From assembly GCA_019057385.1 (NCBI GenBank), contig JAHQJS010000007.1, positions 64,001 to 128,000 of the forward strand: DNA of 64,000 bases, in the 5' to 3' direction. The notes under the pieces were generated by a model. The model saw only the letters and a program-made list of their open reading frames with translations, was not told the DNA's origin and did no database searches. Each line of letters begins with the position of its first letter. Within the stretch, counting starts at the first letter, position 1. Of the stretch, positions 1,985 through 63,029 are shown piece by piece. Source of the stretch: Candidatus Borrarchaeum weybense. Its GTDB lineage: Archaea; Asgardarchaeota; Sifarchaeia; Borrarchaeales; Borrarchaeaceae. Made by a program: the position numbers and the translations under genes.

Positions 1985-2021
1985 TTCTTTATTTTTCATC
2001 ATTCCATATTTATAATATTCT

Positions 2022-2269
2022 CCACAAGAAGACCCCTCAACTTGTTGGGGGGATGAATTGCATTACTTGTTTCACTTTCACAACAGTCTCTAACCTTTAA
2101 ATAGCTATGTGCACATAACAAGTAGGCAGAATTGAGCTGAGGTCATACTCGCCGGTTCTCAAAATAACATCACGTTCAGGGCAGGGACTGCCCGTAGAGC
2201 CTGTTTGACATGTCCCGTTGGGGAATGGATGATTCAGGAAGCCAGCCTACTTGTAGGGTGGTAGTTCAC
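2022..2269 (+). mobile_element. Non-autonomous IS200/IS605 (TnpB-type) element: left end + omegaRNA right end, no ORF
   Basis: Left end CAAGAAGACCCCTCAACTTGTT..GGGGGATGAATTGC matches 17339-17376; 2176-2269 matches 18589-18682 with 4 mismatches in 94 nt; ends TTCAC. Left boundary approximate. Confidence 0.9.
2176..2269 (+). ncRNA. TnpB omegaRNA (reRNA) scaffold, stand-alone copy
   Basis: Near-identical to the tnpB 3' end/right end at 18589-18682; the guide would be the flank from 2270. Confidence 0.75.
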
Positions 2270-12717: not shown

Positions 12718-13509
12718 CTATGTTTCCTTCAGAGAATGTTCTTTCCACTCTTCGATAAGTTTTTTGGTTTTTTTCCGAAGACGGGTTTTTTCTGAGAAGT
12801 AGTCATCTGGGAGAAGCACAAGAGGAACAAACTTACAGGTTTCTCGAAGTTCAATATTTCTCTCTCTTTTTCTTAGAAGAAGAAGTGCGTAGCGTTTTGC
12901 CTTTTCAATAAATTCAGCGTCAAATATATATGATTTTATGAGAATTTCAAACTCTTTACAATCTTTGTGTTCTTTTCGAACTGTAACAATAGTCGTGTCC
13001 CCACGTGTGATAACGAATTCTGAGTTACCTAGGACTTCTTTTTCTAATGTGACATTTTCGAGTGATAATATATTTCCTTTCTTTATCGCAAAAAGCGGTT
13101 GTTCTATACCTTTACTTCCAATCGACTTTGTTAATACCTTGACATAGCATTCCTTGGGGGGCTTCAGACAGGGGCCTGCCTCATATCTCATCTTAATTTG
13201 AAGTGCAATTTCTTTTCCCGTCTCTGTGAGAACATATCGCATTACTGGAGAGTTAATTCTCTTACAGTCCTTTCTTACAATAAGTCCTCCTTTTAAAAAG
13301 CGCCGAACCATTTTTAAAAGTATCTTTGATCCAATATTAAGCTTTCCAGCGTACCAGAAAAGCAATTTACCACCTTGAGAAAGCGCTGACGTACCAATAT
13401 CCCATCGTTCATACATGGGAAAAATGCCTTCGTTTTCATGGAGAAGAACAAGAAAATGATCTTCTAGATCCGATAAAGCACTGTTCAGAATTATTACCTC
13501 ACGGAACAA
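12718..13509 (-). CDS. Hypothetical protein with winged-helix-like N-terminal region
   Basis: Long ORF; GGLIVR...RYVLTETGKE wing motif; the called TTG start lies inside the mini-IS scar. Confidence 0.6.
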   Translation of the reverse strand: MFREVIILNSALSDLEDHFLVLLHENEGIFPMYERWDIGTSALSQGGKLLFWYAGKLNIGSKILLKMVRRFLKGGLIVRKDCKRINSPVMRYVLTETGKEIALQIKMRYEAGPCLKPPKECYVKVLTKSIGSKGIEQPLFAIKKGNILSLENVTLEKEVLGNSEFVITRGDTTIVTVRKEHKDCKEFEILIKSYIFDAEFIEKAKRYALLLLRKRERNIELRETCKFVPLVLLPDDYFSEKTRLRKKTKKLIEEWKEHSLKET

Positions 13510-13538
13510 GCCCCCTCACTTGTTAGGGGGTGATTGAC
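13495..13538 (-). mobile_element. 44-bp deletion derivative of the IscB/HEARO-type element family at 60229-60620
   Basis: ATTATTACCTCA (as at 60224-60235) joined directly to CCTCACGGAACAAGCCCCC...GGGGGTGATTGAC (as at 60579-60620). Confidence 0.8.
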
Positions 13539-17232: not shown

Positions 17233-17406
17233 TTTCTCTGAATTAGAAAGTTTGATAATTGAGGGAAATTTTCAAATTCTTGATACTGTAAACATGTATT
17301 ATTATTCTACACCAAAATTGTTTATGGTAACTATTTCGCAAGAAGACCCCTCAACTTGTTAGGGGGGATGAATTGCGTTTTCACTTTCACCATAGTGTCC
17401 CCAATC

Positions 17407-17414
17407 TTTAAATA
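17407..17414 (+). promoter_or_regulatory. Putative TATA box for tnpB inside the IS left end
   Basis: TTTAAATA about 29 nt before the ATG; conserved at 2096-2103 in the ORF-less copy. Confidence 0.55.
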
Positions 17415-17442
17415 GGTTTTTGCGTCTAGTACATCTAATAAA

Positions 17443-18621
17443 ATGAATAACAGAGGGAAAACAGGGATAGGTGTGATGAAACGGACTTACAGATATCGCC
17501 TGTACCCGACCACACAACAGGCGACTACTTTAACTCAATGGCTCACTACCTGTCGACTGTTGTACAACAACGGTCTTGCCGAGCGGAAAAACGCATGGGA
17601 AACTTATAAAAAATCAGTTACCTATGGTGAGCAAGCTAATCAACTGAAAGGCGCTAAAAAGACCAACCAGTTTTTACAAGCAGTTCATTCTCAGGTACTC
17701 CAAGACACACTGAGAAGACTGGATAAGACTTTTAACAACTTTTTTAGACGCATCAAGAAGGGTGAGAAAGCAGGTTACCCGCGATTTAAGGGGAAATACC
17801 GATATGACTCTTTTACCTACCCGCAAAGTGGGTTCACCCTCGATTACCGCAAGAAGAAACTCCGCCTCTCGAAGATTGGAGCTATCACCATTAAACTACA
17901 CCGTCCTATCCCCTCTGAAGGCGTGATCAAGACCTGTACCATCAAACGCGATGTCGACCACTGGTATGCTTGTTTTTCAGTAGAACTTCCCAATCATGAG
18001 TCCCAGAGAAAGCTACAGAAAGCGATAGGGGTAGATGTTGGGCTGAAGAGTTTACTGACGTTAAATAATGGGGAGACCATAGCTAACCCCCGCTGGTTGA
18101 GAACGTCAGAGAAGAAAGTAGCCAAAGAGCAGCGAAGGAAAGACAGGAAGGTTAAGGGCTCAAATAACCGCTACAAGCAGAACAAAAAGGTAGCACAGGT
18201 ACATAGGAAGATACACTATCAACGAAAGGACTTTCATCACAAGCTCAGTCGGAAATTGGTCGATAACTATGACCTAATTGTGTATGAGAACTTAAAGATC
18301 ACCAACATGGTCAAAAACCATCATGTAGCTAAGTCGATTAGTGACGCAGGATGGGGACAACTAATGTGTTTTACGGAGTACAAAGCGGAGGAAGCTGGTA
18401 CTCTCGTAGAATATGTGAGTGCCTATAATACCACACAACTGTGTAGCCAGTGCGGGAAGCTGGTGCCGAAAACACTGGCAACACGAATCCACAGCTGTCC
18501 TTACTGTGGACTGGTGTTAGCTAGAGACCATAATTCTGCCATCACGGTGTTACACCGATCAACCCGCTATTTAGAATCACTGTCATCATCAGGGCAGGGA
18601 CTGCCCGTCGAGCCTGTTTGA
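17443..18621 (+). CDS. tnpB: RNA-guided endonuclease TnpB
   Basis: YRYRLYPT N-terminus, RuvC-I GVDVG, RuvC-II VYENL, Zn finger CSQC/CPYC, RuvC-III RDHNSA. Confidence 0.96.
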   Translation: MNNRGKTGIGVMKRTYRYRLYPTTQQATTLTQWLTTCRLLYNNGLAERKNAWETYKKSVTYGEQANQLKGAKKTNQFLQAVHSQVLQDTLRRLDKTFNNFFRRIKKGEKAGYPRFKGKYRYDSFTYPQSGFTLDYRKKKLRLSKIGAITIKLHRPIPSEGVIKTCTIKRDVDHWYACFSVELPNHESQRKLQKAIGVDVGLKSLLTLNNGETIANPRWLRTSEKKVAKEQRRKDRKVKGSNNRYKQNKKVAQVHRKIHYQRKDFHHKLSRKLVDNYDLIVYENLKITNMVKNHHVAKSISDAGWGQLMCFTEYKAEEAGTLVEYVSAYNTTQLCSQCGKLVPKTLATRIHSCPYCGLVLARDHNSAITVLHRSTRYLESLSSSGQGLPVEPV

Positions 18622-18682
18622 CATGTCCCGTTGGGGAATGGAGGATACAGGAAGCCACCCTACTTGTAGGGTGGTAGTTCAC
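18589..18682 (+). ncRNA. TnpB omegaRNA scaffold overlapping the tnpB 3' end
   Basis: Established TnpB locus layout; conserved in the copy at 2176-2269; 5' limit uncertain. Confidence 0.78.
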
Positions 18683-58868: not shown

Positions 58869-60158
58869 TTGAGAAATATAGTTGGTGAGAGATACATGCA
58901 AGTTGACATCCCTTACGGAGAGGAAAATATCACAATTGATATTTCAGCGCCTTGTGAAGTATTAGTCCCAAATGAAGTCCAAATCAGAGATCAATTTGAA
59001 ATTATTGAGCAAGCGATTCAAAATCCAATAGGGAAAGAATCTTTCGAAGATTTTGCTGCGAAATCTGACCGTTTACTTGTCATCGTTAATGATGCGTCAC
59101 GCCCGACTCCTACAAGTGTGATATTGGAGTTTCTTTTTTCATATCTTTCATCTCATTCTGATGTTCGGTTTCTTGTCGCTACAGGGGCTCATAGGGAACC
59201 AACTGAAGAAGAAAATCGTTTTATCTTTGGCAGGTTCTATGATGATTTCAAAGAGGTAATTTTCGTTCACGATGCTCGAAAGGAAGAAGATATGACATAT
59301 CTCGGAACGTCGAAGAATGGGACCGAGATGTATATCAACAAGTTAGTTCCTGAGATCAGGAATGTGCTTATTATTGGGAGTGTTGAACCACATTATTTTG
59401 CTGGGTTCACCGGTGGAAGGAAATCGTTTCTCCCTGGCGTTGCCTCATATAAGACTATTGAAATGAATCATAGACTTGCGTTTAGTGATGATGCAAGATC
59501 TCTCGCTCTAGATGGTAATCCTGTCCATGAAGATATGGTAGACGCGATGAATGTTTTAGAAAATATCAATATTTTTTCTATTCAGACAGTTCTAACTGGC
59601 GATCATAAACTCTATGCCGTGACTGCTGGTGATCTACTGAAAACCTTTGATGCAGCTATTGAGGCAGCTAAAACGATCTATTGCGTTCCATTGAGGCAAA
59701 GAGCAAATATAGTTATTTCCGTTGCACCTTATCCTATGGATATTGATTTATATCAGTCTCAAAAAGCCCTAGACAATGGTAAATTGGCAGTAGAAGATGA
59801 TGGGATCCTGATTGTTGTTTCAAAATGTCGAATGGGTGTTGGCGAAGCTGCATTTTTAGATCTTTTGGGTAGCGCAGGATCTTGTCAGGATGTTTTGAAT
59901 ATACTGGATGAAGAGTATAAACTTGGTTATCACAAAGCAGCAAAAATGGCACAAATCGGAATTAGAACTCAAATGTGGGCCGTTACTGATTTGGATGAAA
60001 ATATTATCAAAAAAGCAAAGTTAAAGCCATATTCTGACATCCAGTCAGCTGTGAATGACGCAATTCAATTGATAAAGGTAAAGGGCAAACAGCCGAGAAT
60101 TGTGATAATGCCATCAGGGAGTCTTACCATCCCATACCTAAATCTAAACAAAAAATAA
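58869..60158 (+). CDS. larA: Nickel-pincer lactate racemase LarA family (start probably 58896)
   Basis: VNDASRPTP, ATGAHR, VHD, EPHYFAGFTGGRKS, D.DLYQSQK. Confidence 0.9.
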   Translation: MRNIVGERYMQVDIPYGEENITIDISAPCEVLVPNEVQIRDQFEIIEQAIQNPIGKESFEDFAAKSDRLLVIVNDASRPTPTSVILEFLFSYLSSHSDVRFLVATGAHREPTEEENRFIFGRFYDDFKEVIFVHDARKEEDMTYLGTSKNGTEMYINKLVPEIRNVLIIGSVEPHYFAGFTGGRKSFLPGVASYKTIEMNHRLAFSDDARSLALDGNPVHEDMVDAMNVLENINIFSIQTVLTGDHKLYAVTAGDLLKTFDAAIEAAKTIYCVPLRQRANIVISVAPYPMDIDLYQSQKALDNGKLAVEDDGILIVVSKCRMGVGEAAFLDLLGSAGSCQDVLNILDEEYKLGYHKAAKMAQIGIRTQMWAVTDLDENIIKKAKLKPYSDIQSAVNDAIQLIKVKGKQPRIVIMPSGSLTIPYLNLNKK

Positions 60159-60228
60159 GGTTAAAAAAAGTGTTTTCGGAATGAGGACATGATGTTTTTT
60201 AATACTCATATAGGTATTTCATTATTAT

Positions 60229-60620
60229 TACCTCAAGGAGACCCCCCAACTTGTTGGGGGGAGGAATTGAGGTCGAGCGTTGCTCACACAACCCTTTCTG
60301 CGGAGACAGGGGTTGGTGTACCCAACCTCGGGTGGTGTTTTAATGACGGGTACTCGCAAGTCCCGCCGCTCCCAACACCAAGGGAGTAGGTTCTCTTCGC
60401 CAAAGTTATCAGTCAGTACTATACGATGATCACTGAGAGTTTCCTCTCTGTTTAAACCACCGTTTACAGAGCAAGGGACTAGAGAAGCATCCCTTGGTGT
60501 GTTCTTTAACTCTCCTGATAACGTAGATACCGCCATATATATGACCTCTCTTAGGCTAATCAACCAATTACTCTCGCTCCTCACGGAACAAGCCCCCTTA
60601 CTTGGTAGGGGGTGATTGAC
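60229..60620 (-). mobile_element. Non-autonomous IS200/IS605 element carrying an IscB-type omegaRNA, no iscB ORF
   Basis: Left-end hairpin CAAGGAGACCCCCCAACTTGTTGGGGGGAGGAATTG is nearly identical to the tnpB element left end; right hairpin AAGCCCCCTTACTTGGTAGGGGG..TTGAC; preceded by TTAT. Confidence 0.85.
60340..60620 (-). ncRNA. HEARO-like / IscB omegaRNA scaffold
   Basis: Minus strand reads GTCAATCACCCC..GGGGCTTG..TTGATTAGCCTAAG..CTACGTT..GGGATGCTTCTCTAGTCCC..GCTCT..TGGCGAAGAG, the motif order I recall for HEARO RNAs; 3' limit approximate. Confidence 0.75.
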
Positions 60621-60623
60621 TGA

Positions 60624-63029
60624 TCAGTGGTATTCAGGTTGGTATGATATAGGGTGTATTGGCAATCCACTAATTTGCGAAGCTTCTAGCGTTACAGGTG
60701 AAAGATATGATTTTGCAAAGCCTCTAACTTCAGCCAAAGTGTATTTTCTGGTAGTTGAGAGTAATTGTCTGCCCTCAGTATCCAAAGCGTGGATATAATT
60801 TACAATGCCGTCTGCTCCTTTGTATCGAGCAACTCCACAGAATGAACTTGCCATTGCAATACCATCTGCACCTAGGATTATTGCCTTTACGAGATGATCT
60901 GATCTTACAAGTCCTCCTGCGATAACAAATGATGATTTATATTGTCGTTCACGGCAAAGATCTAAAAGTATTTTATAACCACCTACAAGACATTGGAGCG
61001 TTGAAAGACCAACTTCATTCATAACCAAACGCGGAGACATTCCAGTTCCGCCTTCTGAGCCGTCAATGGTTACGCATGCTACCTTCATTTCACTACACAC
61101 TTTAAAAGTGGCTGCGAGATCTGTATAGTCATAGGCACCAGTCTTAAAGAATACCCGTTTGTATCCAAGATCATCATAGAGTTCTTTAAATTTGTCTCTG
61201 AGTTCATCCATATGTAAAGCGATAATACCAGGGGCTGAGTGCCTTTCGTAGCCTTCTGGCCCGGCTGGAGCAATATCTGGATCAGGAAATAGAATATAGC
61301 CCTTTCCTTTAAGCATGCGGGCTTTGTTTCTATCAAAAATTCTGACTTCGCCTCCCATACCGGGTTTTGCTCCTTGACCTCCTTTTAATTCAAATCCCAA
61401 TGCATCATTGACGAATTTTGAGCCGTATTGTTCGCGTGCATGATCAATTACAATTGCTGGTACACCTGCGATCCAGTCTTCAATGTTTGCCTGAACTACC
61501 AGCCCTCCATGTTTAGAGTCCCAATGTTGTCCAAATTCATCAATTTCCTCGATTAATCTTGCTTTTCCGTGCATATTAAGCACATTTTCACCAATTGTCC
61601 TGATTATTCCACCGCGGGCTGCACCTTCTGAAAGTTCAGCTGAAACCCTGTCTGCGACCTTAGTAGAGCCTACTGCTGCAATTATTACTGGAATTTTACA
61701 TTTAATTCCACCAAGAATTTCAAAGAGACTTGCATCTTGGTATATAGGTTCCCTACCAAGTTCTAACTTTTTCTTATAGCCTCCCCTCCATCTAGGCTTG
61801 ATTTGGAAGTCATCGATTGACGGCAATCGCTTTACCGAGCCGAAAGTCGCCCTGCCAAACTTCACCCTGGGATCAATATCCCCACAATAGTCAGCAGCAC
61901 CGGTATCAGCATAATATCCGATAATACATTCACCACAACCAGAGCATACCTCACACATTCCACTCGATCGTTTGGTCCTTGTATCTCCTTGATTTAATGG
62001 CATTGAAGGAAACATAGCGTAATAATCAAGCATAGAAAGTAGCGGTTCTCTTGAAAGTCTTTTCTTATCAGATAACGTCTTAATTTGCTTTATATTTGCT
62101 GATTCCTCAATTATTTCATCTAATACATTAAAAAGACGCTCTCCAGTAGAGTTTCTGATAATGACAGTACTATAAAGTGATTTACTCCCGACCGAACCTA
62201 CCGACACGTCCGCCAGCGATGCTGTGAAATCCTGGCATATTTTACAATAATTATTGATGGCTAAGTTCAACGATAAATCCTCTAAGTCCATCTCAGAGGT
62301 TGAACCGTCATTCTTTCTGTATTCTAATTTCCCTTTCTTGATTTGCATAGCCTGTATTTCTGAAGGCAAGCCAAGGACTCCTGGATTACCGAAAATTCGA
62401 TTATAGAGAAAAGATTCCATACAGAAAAGACCCACAACACCATGAAGGCTTTTCGAATTGAAAATCTCACCATTTTGGAGTTGTAGTTTGCGAACGGCTC
62501 TTAAATGACACGGTAGACCGACAAAAAGGACCTTATCATAAAGTTTGGTGGCTTCAATTAAGCTCGGGATTGGTGTACTTGTCGTATATTTAGAGCCAGC
62601 AAAATCTACTACAGTGTTATCTTCTGTTACTATTTCTGTAATTGGGTGCCAGAAAGAATCTCTTTTTGTTAATACTGCAGCATCTATAACTCCTTTTGAA
62701 AGAAGCTCTTCGACTAATTTGGTTATAATACCGCCATCTTGAGCAAACTCGGGGCGCTTGTTCAATCTAACCGATCGGATTTTCATTATTGGCCCAATTT
62801 CTGTTTGATCTGCTTTTTGAAAAAGACTTCCTATATTCTCGTATCCTATATTAATCTGAGGACACATTGTGAAACAATGACCACATCCTGTACAATCATC
62901 TAAGTCTTCTACATACGGAACTCCGCTATCTATCTGAACTATACTACAAACTGCAGCACATGTGCCACATTGAGTGCAGAATCCACGGTCAATTACCAAA
63001 TTTTTCAGATCTTCGAAATAAAAAGTCAT
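60624..63029 (-). CDS. Fusion: 2x[4Fe-4S] + FrhB (F420-binding) module + FMN-binding glutamate synthase family domain
   Basis: CTQCGTC/CTGCGHC; AQDGG, AGSKY, VGLPC, GLFCMESF, C..C.DF...ADVSVGSVGS; ELKGGQGAKPGMGGE, DGSEGGTGMSP. Confidence 0.88.
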   Translation of the reverse strand: MTFYFEDLKNLVIDRGFCTQCGTCAAVCSIVQIDSGVPYVEDLDDCTGCGHCFTMCPQINIGYENIGSLFQKADQTEIGPIMKIRSVRLNKRPEFAQDGGIITKLVEELLSKGVIDAAVLTKRDSFWHPITEIVTEDNTVVDFAGSKYTTSTPIPSLIEATKLYDKVLFVGLPCHLRAVRKLQLQNGEIFNSKSLHGVVGLFCMESFLYNRIFGNPGVLGLPSEIQAMQIKKGKLEYRKNDGSTSEMDLEDLSLNLAINNYCKICQDFTASLADVSVGSVGSKSLYSTVIIRNSTGERLFNVLDEIIEESANIKQIKTLSDKKRLSREPLLSMLDYYAMFPSMPLNQGDTRTKRSSGMCEVCSGCGECIIGYYADTGAADYCGDIDPRVKFGRATFGSVKRLPSIDDFQIKPRWRGGYKKKLELGREPIYQDASLFEILGGIKCKIPVIIAAVGSTKVADRVSAELSEGAARGGIIRTIGENVLNMHGKARLIEEIDEFGQHWDSKHGGLVVQANIEDWIAGVPAIVIDHAREQYGSKFVNDALGFELKGGQGAKPGMGGEVRIFDRNKARMLKGKGYILFPDPDIAPAGPEGYERHSAPGIIALHMDELRDKFKELYDDLGYKRVFFKTGAYDYTDLAATFKVCSEMKVACVTIDGSEGGTGMSPRLVMNEVGLSTLQCLVGGYKILLDLCRERQYKSSFVIAGGLVRSDHLVKAIILGADGIAMASSFCGVARYKGADGIVNYIHALDTEGRQLLSTTRKYTLAEVRGFAKSYLSPVTLEASQISGLPIHPISYQPEYH

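What the first reader, a model, noticed from the sequence alone, without database searches (positions are those of the whole stretch)
60229..60645. Orphan IscB-type omegaRNA (HEARO-like) element sharing transposon ends with TnpB elements, with its guide in a host gene's 3' end
Seen: the left end (CAAGGAGACCCCCCAACTTGTTGGGGGGAGGAATTG) nearly equals the tnpB element's, with compensatory outer stems (CCTCAA/TTGAGG versus CGCAA/TTGCG). The right hairpin is also related, but the cargo is an inward-reading HEARO-like RNA without iscB. The scaffold starts 3 nt after the stop of the co-oriented FrhB-glutamate synthase gene. Known: IscB guides lie 5' of the scaffold, outside the element. Inference: one TnpA mobilises both Cas9-ancestor-type and Cas12-ancestor-type guide cassettes in this genome, and this guide (...CCTGAATACCACTGATCA) would be made by read-through of host mRNA.
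Basis: partly seen in the sequence, partly recalled or inferred. Interest (0 to 1): 0.78.

Follow-up and report, generated by a model that had tools for sequence, protein, structure and literature searches.

The report
Nuclease-less IscB guide-RNA mini-transposon
This is a real 398-base mobile element in an Asgard (Borrarchaeum-like) archaeon that carries only the guide-RNA scaffold of an IscB nuclease and depends on genes elsewhere in the genome; it is a clean example of a kind already described in bacteria, not a new mechanism.

Summary
Window 60386-60620 (minus strand) is a full-length HEARO/IscB omegaRNA (Rfam RF02033, 134 bits against a cut-off of 83). It sits in a 398-nt element, 60223-60620, inserted after a TTCAT motif and 3 nt past the stop of the FrhB-glutamate synthase gene. 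Two metagenome runs hold contigs that skip exactly these 398 nt, and two congeners also have an empty site.

The genome has 36 HEARO matches. Sixteen are followed by iscB and 20 are orphans, including nine copies of this type. It also has about 41 tnpB and one tnpA. The left-end hairpin is shared with TnpB elements (81% over 52 nt, with one compensatory outer-stem pair), and the right ends are related.

It is already published (Kapitonov 2016; Meers 2023, which includes IscB-type protein-less elements and the TTCAT motif). This scan has also met orphan HEARO elements in other genomes.

Three points are new here:
- the Asgard host;
- a genus-specific 110-nt structured tail that replaces iscB;
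- that tail joined to three different omegaRNA types.

Neither TnpA action nor transcription was shown. Verdict: a new member of a known kind, of modest interest.

The parts
60218..60222 (+). Target-adjacent motif TTCAT in host DNA, immediately 5' of the element's left end. Read on the minus strand it is ATGAA, 3' of the guide's target in the empty site.
   Evidence: Read directly. The nine copies have TTCAT, CTCAT, ATCAT, TTTAT or TTTAA at this place. The same motifs, TTCAT and TTTAT, are reported for Geobacillus IscB and TnpB elements.
60223..60620 (.). The whole 398-nt non-autonomous IS200/IS605-type element (left end, tail, omegaRNA scaffold, right end). It has no conserved ORF.
   Evidence: Metagenome contigs join 60222 to 60621, skipping 398 nt, in runs X4 and X7. 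Congeners G002 and G004 have empty sites. Similarity among nine copies stops sharply at ...GATTGAC. Indels that are not multiples of three occur among the copies.
60231..60272 (+). Left-end subterminal hairpin: outer stem CCTCAA/TTGAGG, inner stem CCCCCC/GGGGGG.
   Evidence: D8; z 8.1 against the tnpB left end. Compensatory changes occur in both stems across 20 copies.
60273..60385 (-). Tail module: about 110 nt of conserved hairpins that takes the place of iscB.
   Evidence: It has no similarity to iscB-bearing copies. There are 16 copies in this genome and 3-8 in each of four congeners. It was not found in 196 other genomes of the phylum. Fold z is -3.5. Its helices have 82 G-U and 13 non-pairs on the HEARO strand, against 9 G-U and 86 non-pairs on the other strand.
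60386..60620 (-). IscB omegaRNA scaffold (HEARO), complete.
   Evidence: 134 bits, model 1-211. It is 88-93% identical to iscB-linked copies. The core is 95% identical among the nine orphans, against 83% for the tail and 72% for the left end.
60592..60620 (+). Right-end hairpin (CCCCCT/AGGGGG) plus the terminal GATTGAC. On the other strand this is the first stem-loop of the omegaRNA.
   Evidence: Read directly. It is related to the tnpB right end at 18640-18682 (z 4.7). The boundary is set.
60621..60640 (-). Guide region, made of host flank, covering the last codons, the stop and 3 nt of the host gene.
   Evidence: The only genomic match of the 20-mer is this locus, where it is followed by the scaffold and not by the motif.
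60624..63029 (-). Co-oriented host gene (801 aa, FrhB plus glutamate synthase fusion) whose transcript would have to supply the guide.
17326..18682 (+). Full-length TnpB element with the related left and right ends (motif TTTAT at 17321-17325).
2014..2269 (+). A 256-nt TnpB-type mini-element without tnpB, with the same ends (motif TTTAT at 2009-2013).
   Evidence: (D7 96%, D8).

Best explanation
Window 60223-60620 is a non-autonomous IS200/IS605-family mini-element, of the protein-less, PATE-like kind. Its only cargo is a complete IscB omegaRNA scaffold plus a 110-nt structured RNA tail. It inserted after a TTCAT motif, 3 nt past the stop codon of a co-oriented gene and ahead of that gene's T-run.

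Inferred mechanism:
1. A Y1 transposase (TnpA) supplied in trans recognises the two subterminal hairpins, which resemble those of the genome's TnpB and IscB elements, and moves the element as single-stranded DNA without a scar.
2. Transcription running out of the host gene yields an RNA whose 5' part is about 16-20 nt of host flank (the guide), followed by the scaffold.
3. One of the 12 resident IscB proteins whose own scaffolds are 88-93% identical binds this RNA in trans.
4. If the element is excised, the rejoined site (guide match followed by ATGAA) is cut and repaired from the sister copy, so the element is kept.

Shown here: identity, limits, mobility (empty sites), copy family, shared ends, presence of helpers, and slower change of the scaffold. 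Inferred: which TnpA acts, transcription and processing, loading by IscB, and the role of the tail.
For: - Identity: HEARO at 134 bits over the full model.
- Limits and mobility: metagenome contigs skip exactly 60223-60620 in two studies, one about 99.7% identical in the flank. Two congeners have empty sites.
- Family: nine copies at 87-94% identity, with sharp limits and NTYAT motifs.
- Helpers: 36 HEARO matches, 16 with iscB 28-75 nt downstream and 20 without. A representative copy, C6:530582-531784, is a 400-aa IscB with RRXRR and HNH domains that matches OgeuIscB structures at about 1e-37. The genome has one Y1 tnpA.
- Ends: shared with TnpB elements.
- Constraint: the scaffold core is 95% identical among orphans, against 83% for the tail and 72% for the left end.
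- Transcription context: upstream ORFs are co-oriented 15 to 3, and many stops lie within 30 nt of the scaffold.
- Guides: they match only their own locus.
- Literature: the published model and bacterial precedents match point by point.
Against: - No RNA evidence is tied to this locus. RNA-library contigs cover only the repeat, at 95-99% identity, and none reaches the flanks.
- The only tnpA in the assembly sits in an element whose left-end hairpin differs in sequence from this one. Its right end is close to the TnpB family's, not to this one.
- Copies are 87-94% alike and none is identical, so most transposition is not very recent.
- The higher conservation of the scaffold could come from gene conversion with iscB-linked copies rather than from selection on the orphan RNA.
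- One of the iscB-linked copies, the one most like the orphans in its ends, has an in-frame TGA.
Confidence: 0.8

Rival explanations
1. It is an inert relic. An IscB element lost its nuclease gene, and what remains is decaying DNA with no activity of its own, neither moved nor used as a guide.
For: No copy is identical to another (87-94%). No transcription has been shown for this locus. Other HEARO matches without iscB look degraded or lack the tail, for example C4:538744 and C8:133971. An earlier follow-up in this scan judged an orphan HEARO in another genome to be a remnant.
Against: Both ends are intact and the insertion is polymorphic with exact limits in natural populations. The same tail-plus-left-end architecture is kept in 16 copies here and in all four congeners. 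The scaffold scores among the best in the genome and changes three to five times more slowly than the rest of the element.
Confidence: 0.12
2. It is a domesticated RNA. The structured RNA serves the host as a 3'-UTR element of the FrhB-glutamate synthase gene (stability, termination or regulation), or guides IscB to a host target.
For: It lies between the stop codon and the T-run of the host gene and is co-oriented with it. It is strongly structured.
Against: Two congeners and two natural populations have the same gene without the insert. The other copies sit behind unrelated genes. The guides match nothing else in the genome next to a suitable motif.
Confidence: 0.03
3. It is a guide-only lineage that parasitises IscB elements. 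The orphan family is not a set of independent deletions. It is one lineage whose tail-plus-left-end cassette has been recombined onto the omegaRNA of three different IscB families, so that it can borrow whichever nuclease is present.
For: Tail plus left end are 79-94% identical among orphans of HEARO types A, B and C. The three HEARO types are only about 60% alike, and each is 83-97% identical to an iscB-linked copy of its own type. The tail is absent from iscB-bearing copies. It was found only in this genus among 201 genomes searched. Its helices are specific to the RNA strand.
Against: This does not contradict the best explanation; it refines it. No recombination breakpoints were mapped, and there is no tree test. 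Independent capture of the same tail three times is unlikely but not excluded. The function of the tail is unknown.
Confidence: 0.3

Closest known systems
Protein-less (PATE-like) derivatives of the IscB element ISGst5 in Geobacillus stearothermophilus (Meers et al. 2023, bioRxiv 10.1101/2023.03.14.532601)
   Same: An IS200/IS605-type element with both ends but no protein gene, in a genome where IscB and TnpB elements have similar ends and a single candidate TnpA. The omegaRNA is bounded by the right end with the guide outside. It depends on transcription from outside, with an orientation bias. The motif is TTCAT or TTTAT.
   Different: The host is an Asgard archaeon rather than a Firmicute. 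Here the orphans outnumber the iscB-linked copies (20 to 16). They carry a conserved 110-nt tail not derived from the resident iscB elements. No experiment has been done.
ISC transposons sharing termini with IS605B (TnpB-only) transposons in Ktedonobacter racemifer (Kapitonov, Makarova and Koonin 2016, PMC4810608)
   Same: IscB and TnpB elements of one genome share terminal palindromes, and mobilisation in trans by a Y1 transposase of another element is proposed.
   Different: That work described elements that encode IscB. It came before the discovery of the guide RNA and did not treat RNA-only derivatives.
HEARO RNA, Rfam RF02033 (Weinberg et al. 2009), the IscB omegaRNA (Altae-Tran et al. 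2021); structures of OgeuIscB with omegaRNA (PDB 7utn, 7xht)
   Same: The match covers the full model at 134 bits, and the scaffold starts GUCAAU at the transposon end. Resident IscB proteins match OgeuIscB.
   Different: No ORF follows this copy. From memory, not checked here (the paper is not held): HEARO copies without an ORF and multi-copy genomes were already noted in 2009, and stand-alone omegaRNAs in 2021.
Orphan HEARO elements noted earlier in this scan (e1-5069071 and others)
   Same: A HEARO scaffold in a nuclease-free mini-element between genes, judged genuine but ordinary.
   Different: Those are in other genomes, and their notes were not checked here. For the present copy, empty sites, the whole-genome family and the modular tail have been worked out.

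Membership tests
HEARO / IscB omegaRNA (RF02033) | Covariance-model score above the curated gathering score, over the whole model | tested here: met
   134 bits against 83, model positions 1-211, E 1.2e-27.
HEARO / IscB omegaRNA (RF02033) | The 5' end of the scaffold coincides with a transposon end, with a variable guide outside | tested here: met
   Similarity among nine copies ends exactly at the scaffold's first base. The empty-site joint is at 60621. All 36 upstream 20-mers differ.
HEARO / IscB omegaRNA (RF02033) | An IscB (RRXRR plus HNH) ORF directly downstream | tested here: not met
   There is no iscB in the window. Instead, 110 nt of tail and the left end follow the scaffold. This is what makes the copy an orphan. 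The RNA family itself does not require the ORF.
HEARO / IscB omegaRNA (RF02033) | A cognate IscB is available in the same genome | tested here: met
   The genome has 16 iscB genes. Twelve are linked to type-A scaffolds 88-93% identical to this one.
HEARO / IscB omegaRNA (RF02033) | The RNA is made and bound by IscB | not testable with these tools
   Only repeat-wide RNA-library contigs were seen, and none is tied to this locus.
IS200/IS605 non-autonomous element (PATE-like) | Subterminal hairpins at both ends, no terminal inverted repeats, no target duplication | tested here: met
   Hairpins lie at 60231-60272 and 60592-60613. The joint is scarless, with 1 nt of ambiguity.
IS200/IS605 non-autonomous element (PATE-like) | Insertion 3' of a short conserved motif at the left end | tested here: met
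   TTCAT here, and NTYAT in eight of the nine copies (one has TTTAA). iscB-linked copies have TTCAT, TTTAT or TTCAC.
IS200/IS605 non-autonomous element (PATE-like) | Multiple dispersed copies and empty sites in relatives | tested here: met
   Nine full copies. Empty sites in G002, G004 and runs X4 and X7.
IS200/IS605 non-autonomous element (PATE-like) | No protein-coding gene | tested here: met
   The ORFs that overlap the element (118 aa on the minus strand, 66 aa and 49 aa on the plus strand) are not kept in frame among copies, because of indels of 5, 8 and 13 nt.
IS200/IS605 non-autonomous element (PATE-like) | A Y1 (HUH) TnpA in the genome that acts on these ends | tested here: inconclusive
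   One tnpA is present. Its own element has a right end like the TnpB family's and a left-end hairpin of the same build but a different sequence. Activity cannot be tested here.

The most novel reading that the evidence does not exclude
The orphans are a distinct guide-only transposon lineage confined to this Asgard genus. Its own conserved, RNA-strand-specific 110-nt tail plus left end has been recombined onto three different omegaRNA scaffolds, each matching a resident IscB family. On this reading it is a parasite of both helpers (TnpA for movement, IscB for retention). The tail would be a new RNA domain that stands in for the missing mRNA, for example in 3'-end formation, stability, or the circularisation reported for archaeal omegaRNAs.
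Probability: 0.3. Interest if true: 0.5.

Novelty: new member of a known kind. Interest (0 to 1): 0.3.

Why it matters
It shows that the complete IscB/TnpB/TnpA arrangement described in Geobacillus also operates in Asgard archaea. That arrangement includes shared ends, RNA-only derivatives, and guides supplied by host transcription. The insertion here is still polymorphic in nature. For annotation, about 20 structured non-coding loci per genome in this genus can now be named, and their flanks read as guides. For research, the genus offers a compact natural test set: one tnpA, 16 iscB, about 41 tnpB and dozens of protein-less elements. It can be used to ask how far one transposase and a few nucleases are shared among elements, and what a guide-only element needs in order to persist. 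It does not change the current picture of how these systems work.

Tried and rejected
blastn-short replaced it.
- An Rfam search at permissive E-values on the tail and left end gave only chance-level hits.
- The tail was compared with iscB-bearing copies and showed no similarity, so it is not a simple internal deletion of the resident elements.
- The tail was searched in 196 further genomes of the phylum and not found in those searched.
- Guides were searched for second targets. None has a suitable motif. The one 19-nt repeat near C6:821142 was not followed up.
- RNA-library run X18 gave contigs that lie only on the repeat at 95-99% likeness, and none bridges into the flanks. It therefore shows neither transcription of this locus nor its absence.
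- A chance or false-positive HEARO match was rejected (E 1e-27, 36 family members).
- Reading the element as a TnpB-type guide cassette was rejected. The scaffold is on the opposite strand and is HEARO.
- The 2009 HEARO paper could not be read, so statements about it rest on memory.
- Complex prediction, structure prediction and the large protein searches were not used, because no open question here depended on them.
Full report
**What is there.**
- Rfam's HEARO model (RF02033) matches window 60386-60620 on the minus strand over its whole length: 134 bits against a gathering score of 83, E 1.2e-27. It is the only Rfam match in the 64-kb window.
- The RNA's first base (60620) lies 3 nt after the TGA stop (60626-60624) of an 801-aa ORF on the same strand. 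That ORF has two ferredoxin-type clusters, both FrhB domains and a glutamate synthase barrel.
No iscB follows the scaffold. Instead there are about 110 nt of hairpins and then a 42-nt nested hairpin.
- The gene on the other side is a convergent LarA-like gene ending at 60158.

**Limits and mobility.**
- Nine copies of the same roughly 400-nt unit occur in the genome at 87-94% identity.
- In an alignment with flanks, similarity ends abruptly at ...GGTGATTGAC on one side. On the other side it fades about 8 nt beyond the outer stem, just after a TTCAT/TTTAT-like motif.
- Two congeners have the same two genes with 58-59 nt between the aligned flanks, where this genome has 451-461 nt.
- Contigs of two metagenome runs from different studies join 60222 directly to 60621, skipping 398 nt with 1 nt of ambiguity. 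One has only 3 differences in 1003 nt of flank.
- The element is therefore 60223-60620. It inserted without a scar after TTCAT, and it is polymorphic in nature.
- Read on the minus strand, the empty site is the guide sequence followed by ATGAA. That is what an IscB programmed by this RNA would recognise.

**The family in this genome.**
- The assembly (4.18 Mb in 8 contigs) has 36 HEARO matches, 16 IscB N-terminal domains, 41 TnpB zinc-ribbon matches and a single Y1 transposase.
- Sixteen HEARO copies have iscB 28-75 nt downstream, and 20 have none within 600 nt.
- A representative IscB is 400 aa with RRXRR and HNH domains and matches solved IscB structures at about 1e-37.
- Its closest relatives in public genomes are titled Candidatus Borrarchaeum/Borrarchaeota and Promethearchaeota, that is, Asgard archaea. 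DPANN archaea, a Lithacetigena bacterium and cyanobacteria follow.
- HEARO is present in all four congeners (5-37 matches) and only here and there elsewhere in the phylum.

**Shared ends.**
- The left-end hairpin of the orphan matches that of the tnpB element at 17326-18682 and of a 256-nt tnpB-less derivative at 2014-2269. Identity is 81% over 52 nt and z is 8.1 against shuffles.
- One outer-stem pair is changed on both sides, T-A to G-C.
- The right ends are related more loosely (z 4.7). They share the loop and the flanking GG..GA/GTTNAC pattern.
- Genome-wide, this left-end type pairs with TnpB-type right ends about 1.35 kb away (12 cases) or 200-330 nt away (13 protein-less cases). It pairs with HEARO-type right ends in the orphans.
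- iscB-bearing copies carry several left-end hairpin variants of the same build. One of them (C6:786859-788402) shares both the orphan's left end (84%) and its diagnostic C-G pair in the first scaffold helix.
- The tnpA-tnpB element has a right end nearly the same as the TnpB family's. Its left-end hairpin has the same architecture but a different sequence.
- One transposase serving all of these is plausible but not shown.

**Is the orphan RNA under constraint?**
- Among the nine orphans, mean pairwise identity is 95% in the 3' two-thirds of the scaffold and 88-89% in its 5' third and variable loop. It is 83% in the tail, 72% in the left end and about 28-30% in the flanks.
- Scaffold helices hold 165 G-U pairs on the RNA strand, against 9 when read on the other strand.
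- This fits selection on the RNA, though gene conversion from iscB-linked copies could give the same picture.

**Read-through.**
- Where an ORF of at least 100 aa overlaps the 20-120 nt upstream of a HEARO copy, it is co-oriented in 15 cases and opposite in 3. Many stops lie within 30 nt of the scaffold or just inside it.
- In the window, the element sits between the stop codon and the T-run of the intergenic region.
- This is the bias and the explanation given by Meers et al. for IscB elements.
- No promoter model for archaea was available, and no RNA contig reached the flanks.

**The tail.**
- The 110 nt between scaffold and left end has no counterpart in the iscB-bearing copies.
- It occurs 16 times here and in every congener, and in none of 196 other genomes sampled from the phylum.
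- It folds better than shuffles (z -3.5).
- Its helices are specific to the HEARO strand: 82 G-U and 13 non-pairs, against 9 G-U and 86 non-pairs on the opposite strand.
- Covariation is modest because the copies are similar.
- The same tail and left end (79-94% identical) are attached to three HEARO types that are only about 60% alike. Each type is 83-97% identical to an iscB-linked copy of its own type.
- The simplest reading is exchange of modules between the orphan lineage and the resident IscB elements. This was not tested with trees.

**Comparison with what is known.**
- Kapitonov et al. (2016) showed that IscB (ISC) and TnpB-only transposons of one genome share termini, and proposed mobilisation in trans by Y1 transposases.
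- Meers et al. (2023) described the following:
  - the HEARO-like RNA bounded by the right end, with the guide outside;
  - the need for outside transcription, and the orientation bias;
  - five element families with similar ends in one genome, and one TnpA that excises several of them;
  - the TTCAT and TTTAT motifs;
  - protein-less derivatives of both a TnpB and the IscB element;
  - the idea that such elements need nucleases in trans.
- IscB in archaea is also known, for example 30 copies in Methanosarcina lacustris.
- I found no paper in the held library describing IscB or HEARO expansions in Asgard archaea, but that is a distribution point.
- Earlier notes of this scan report orphan HEARO elements in several other genomes.

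**Verdict.** This is a new member of a known kind, with two modest additions: a genus-specific structured tail, and evidence of module exchange.

Noticed in passing
window 13484-13538: A 50-nt micro-element after a TTCAG motif. The first 13 nt match the orphan-type left end (AATTATTACCTCA) and are fused at a shared CCTCA to the last 41 nt of the HEARO-type right end, which is 95% identical to 60579-60620. It looks like a left/right-end recombinant or an aberrant excision product that left a single hybrid hairpin. It is the only one of its kind found in the genome.
   Followed up: partly
window 60294-60572 (run X18, RNA library): A 309-nt contig from a metatranscriptome runs 60365 to 60294 and then straight on from 60572 to 60336. 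Its first and last 30 nt are the same stretch, so it is a path closing on itself with a 279-nt circumference. It could be a circular RNA isoform (circular omegaRNAs are reported in archaea, PMC12558985), a tandem partial copy, or a graph artefact in a multi-copy repeat. A second contig joins tail, 70 unknown letters and the right-end start.
   Followed up: no
G000 C7:194100-195900 (locus L041): The genome's only tnpA overlaps a 427-aa tnpB. The 10-mer ATAGACTTGG stands both at the start of the presumed left end and directly after the right end (TAGTTCAC). This suggests a tandem or nested insertion, or a partial second left end.
   Followed up: no
window 2014-2269 and 12 further places in the genome: TnpB-type protein-less mini-elements of 200-330 nt that keep the left end and the last ~95 nt of the right end, the TnpB guide scaffold region (96% identical between 2176-2269 and 18589-18682). 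Together with the 20 HEARO orphans, protein-less elements rival the protein-coding ones in number.
   Followed up: partly
G000 C6:531818-532077 (locus L032 2059-2298): An iscB-bearing element inserted inside the last codons of a co-oriented KaiC-like gene. The host ORF now runs 18 nt into the omegaRNA scaffold and ends there, so the insertion replaced the protein's C-terminus. Several other copies show the same pattern, with ORF ends 17-30 nt inside the scaffold.
   Followed up: no
G000 C4:705319-705994: Two HEARO copies of different types (A and C) lie head to tail, 188 nt apart, upstream of one iscB. This is a nested or adjacent insertion.
   Followed up: no
I saw its sequence only in passing.
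   Followed up: no
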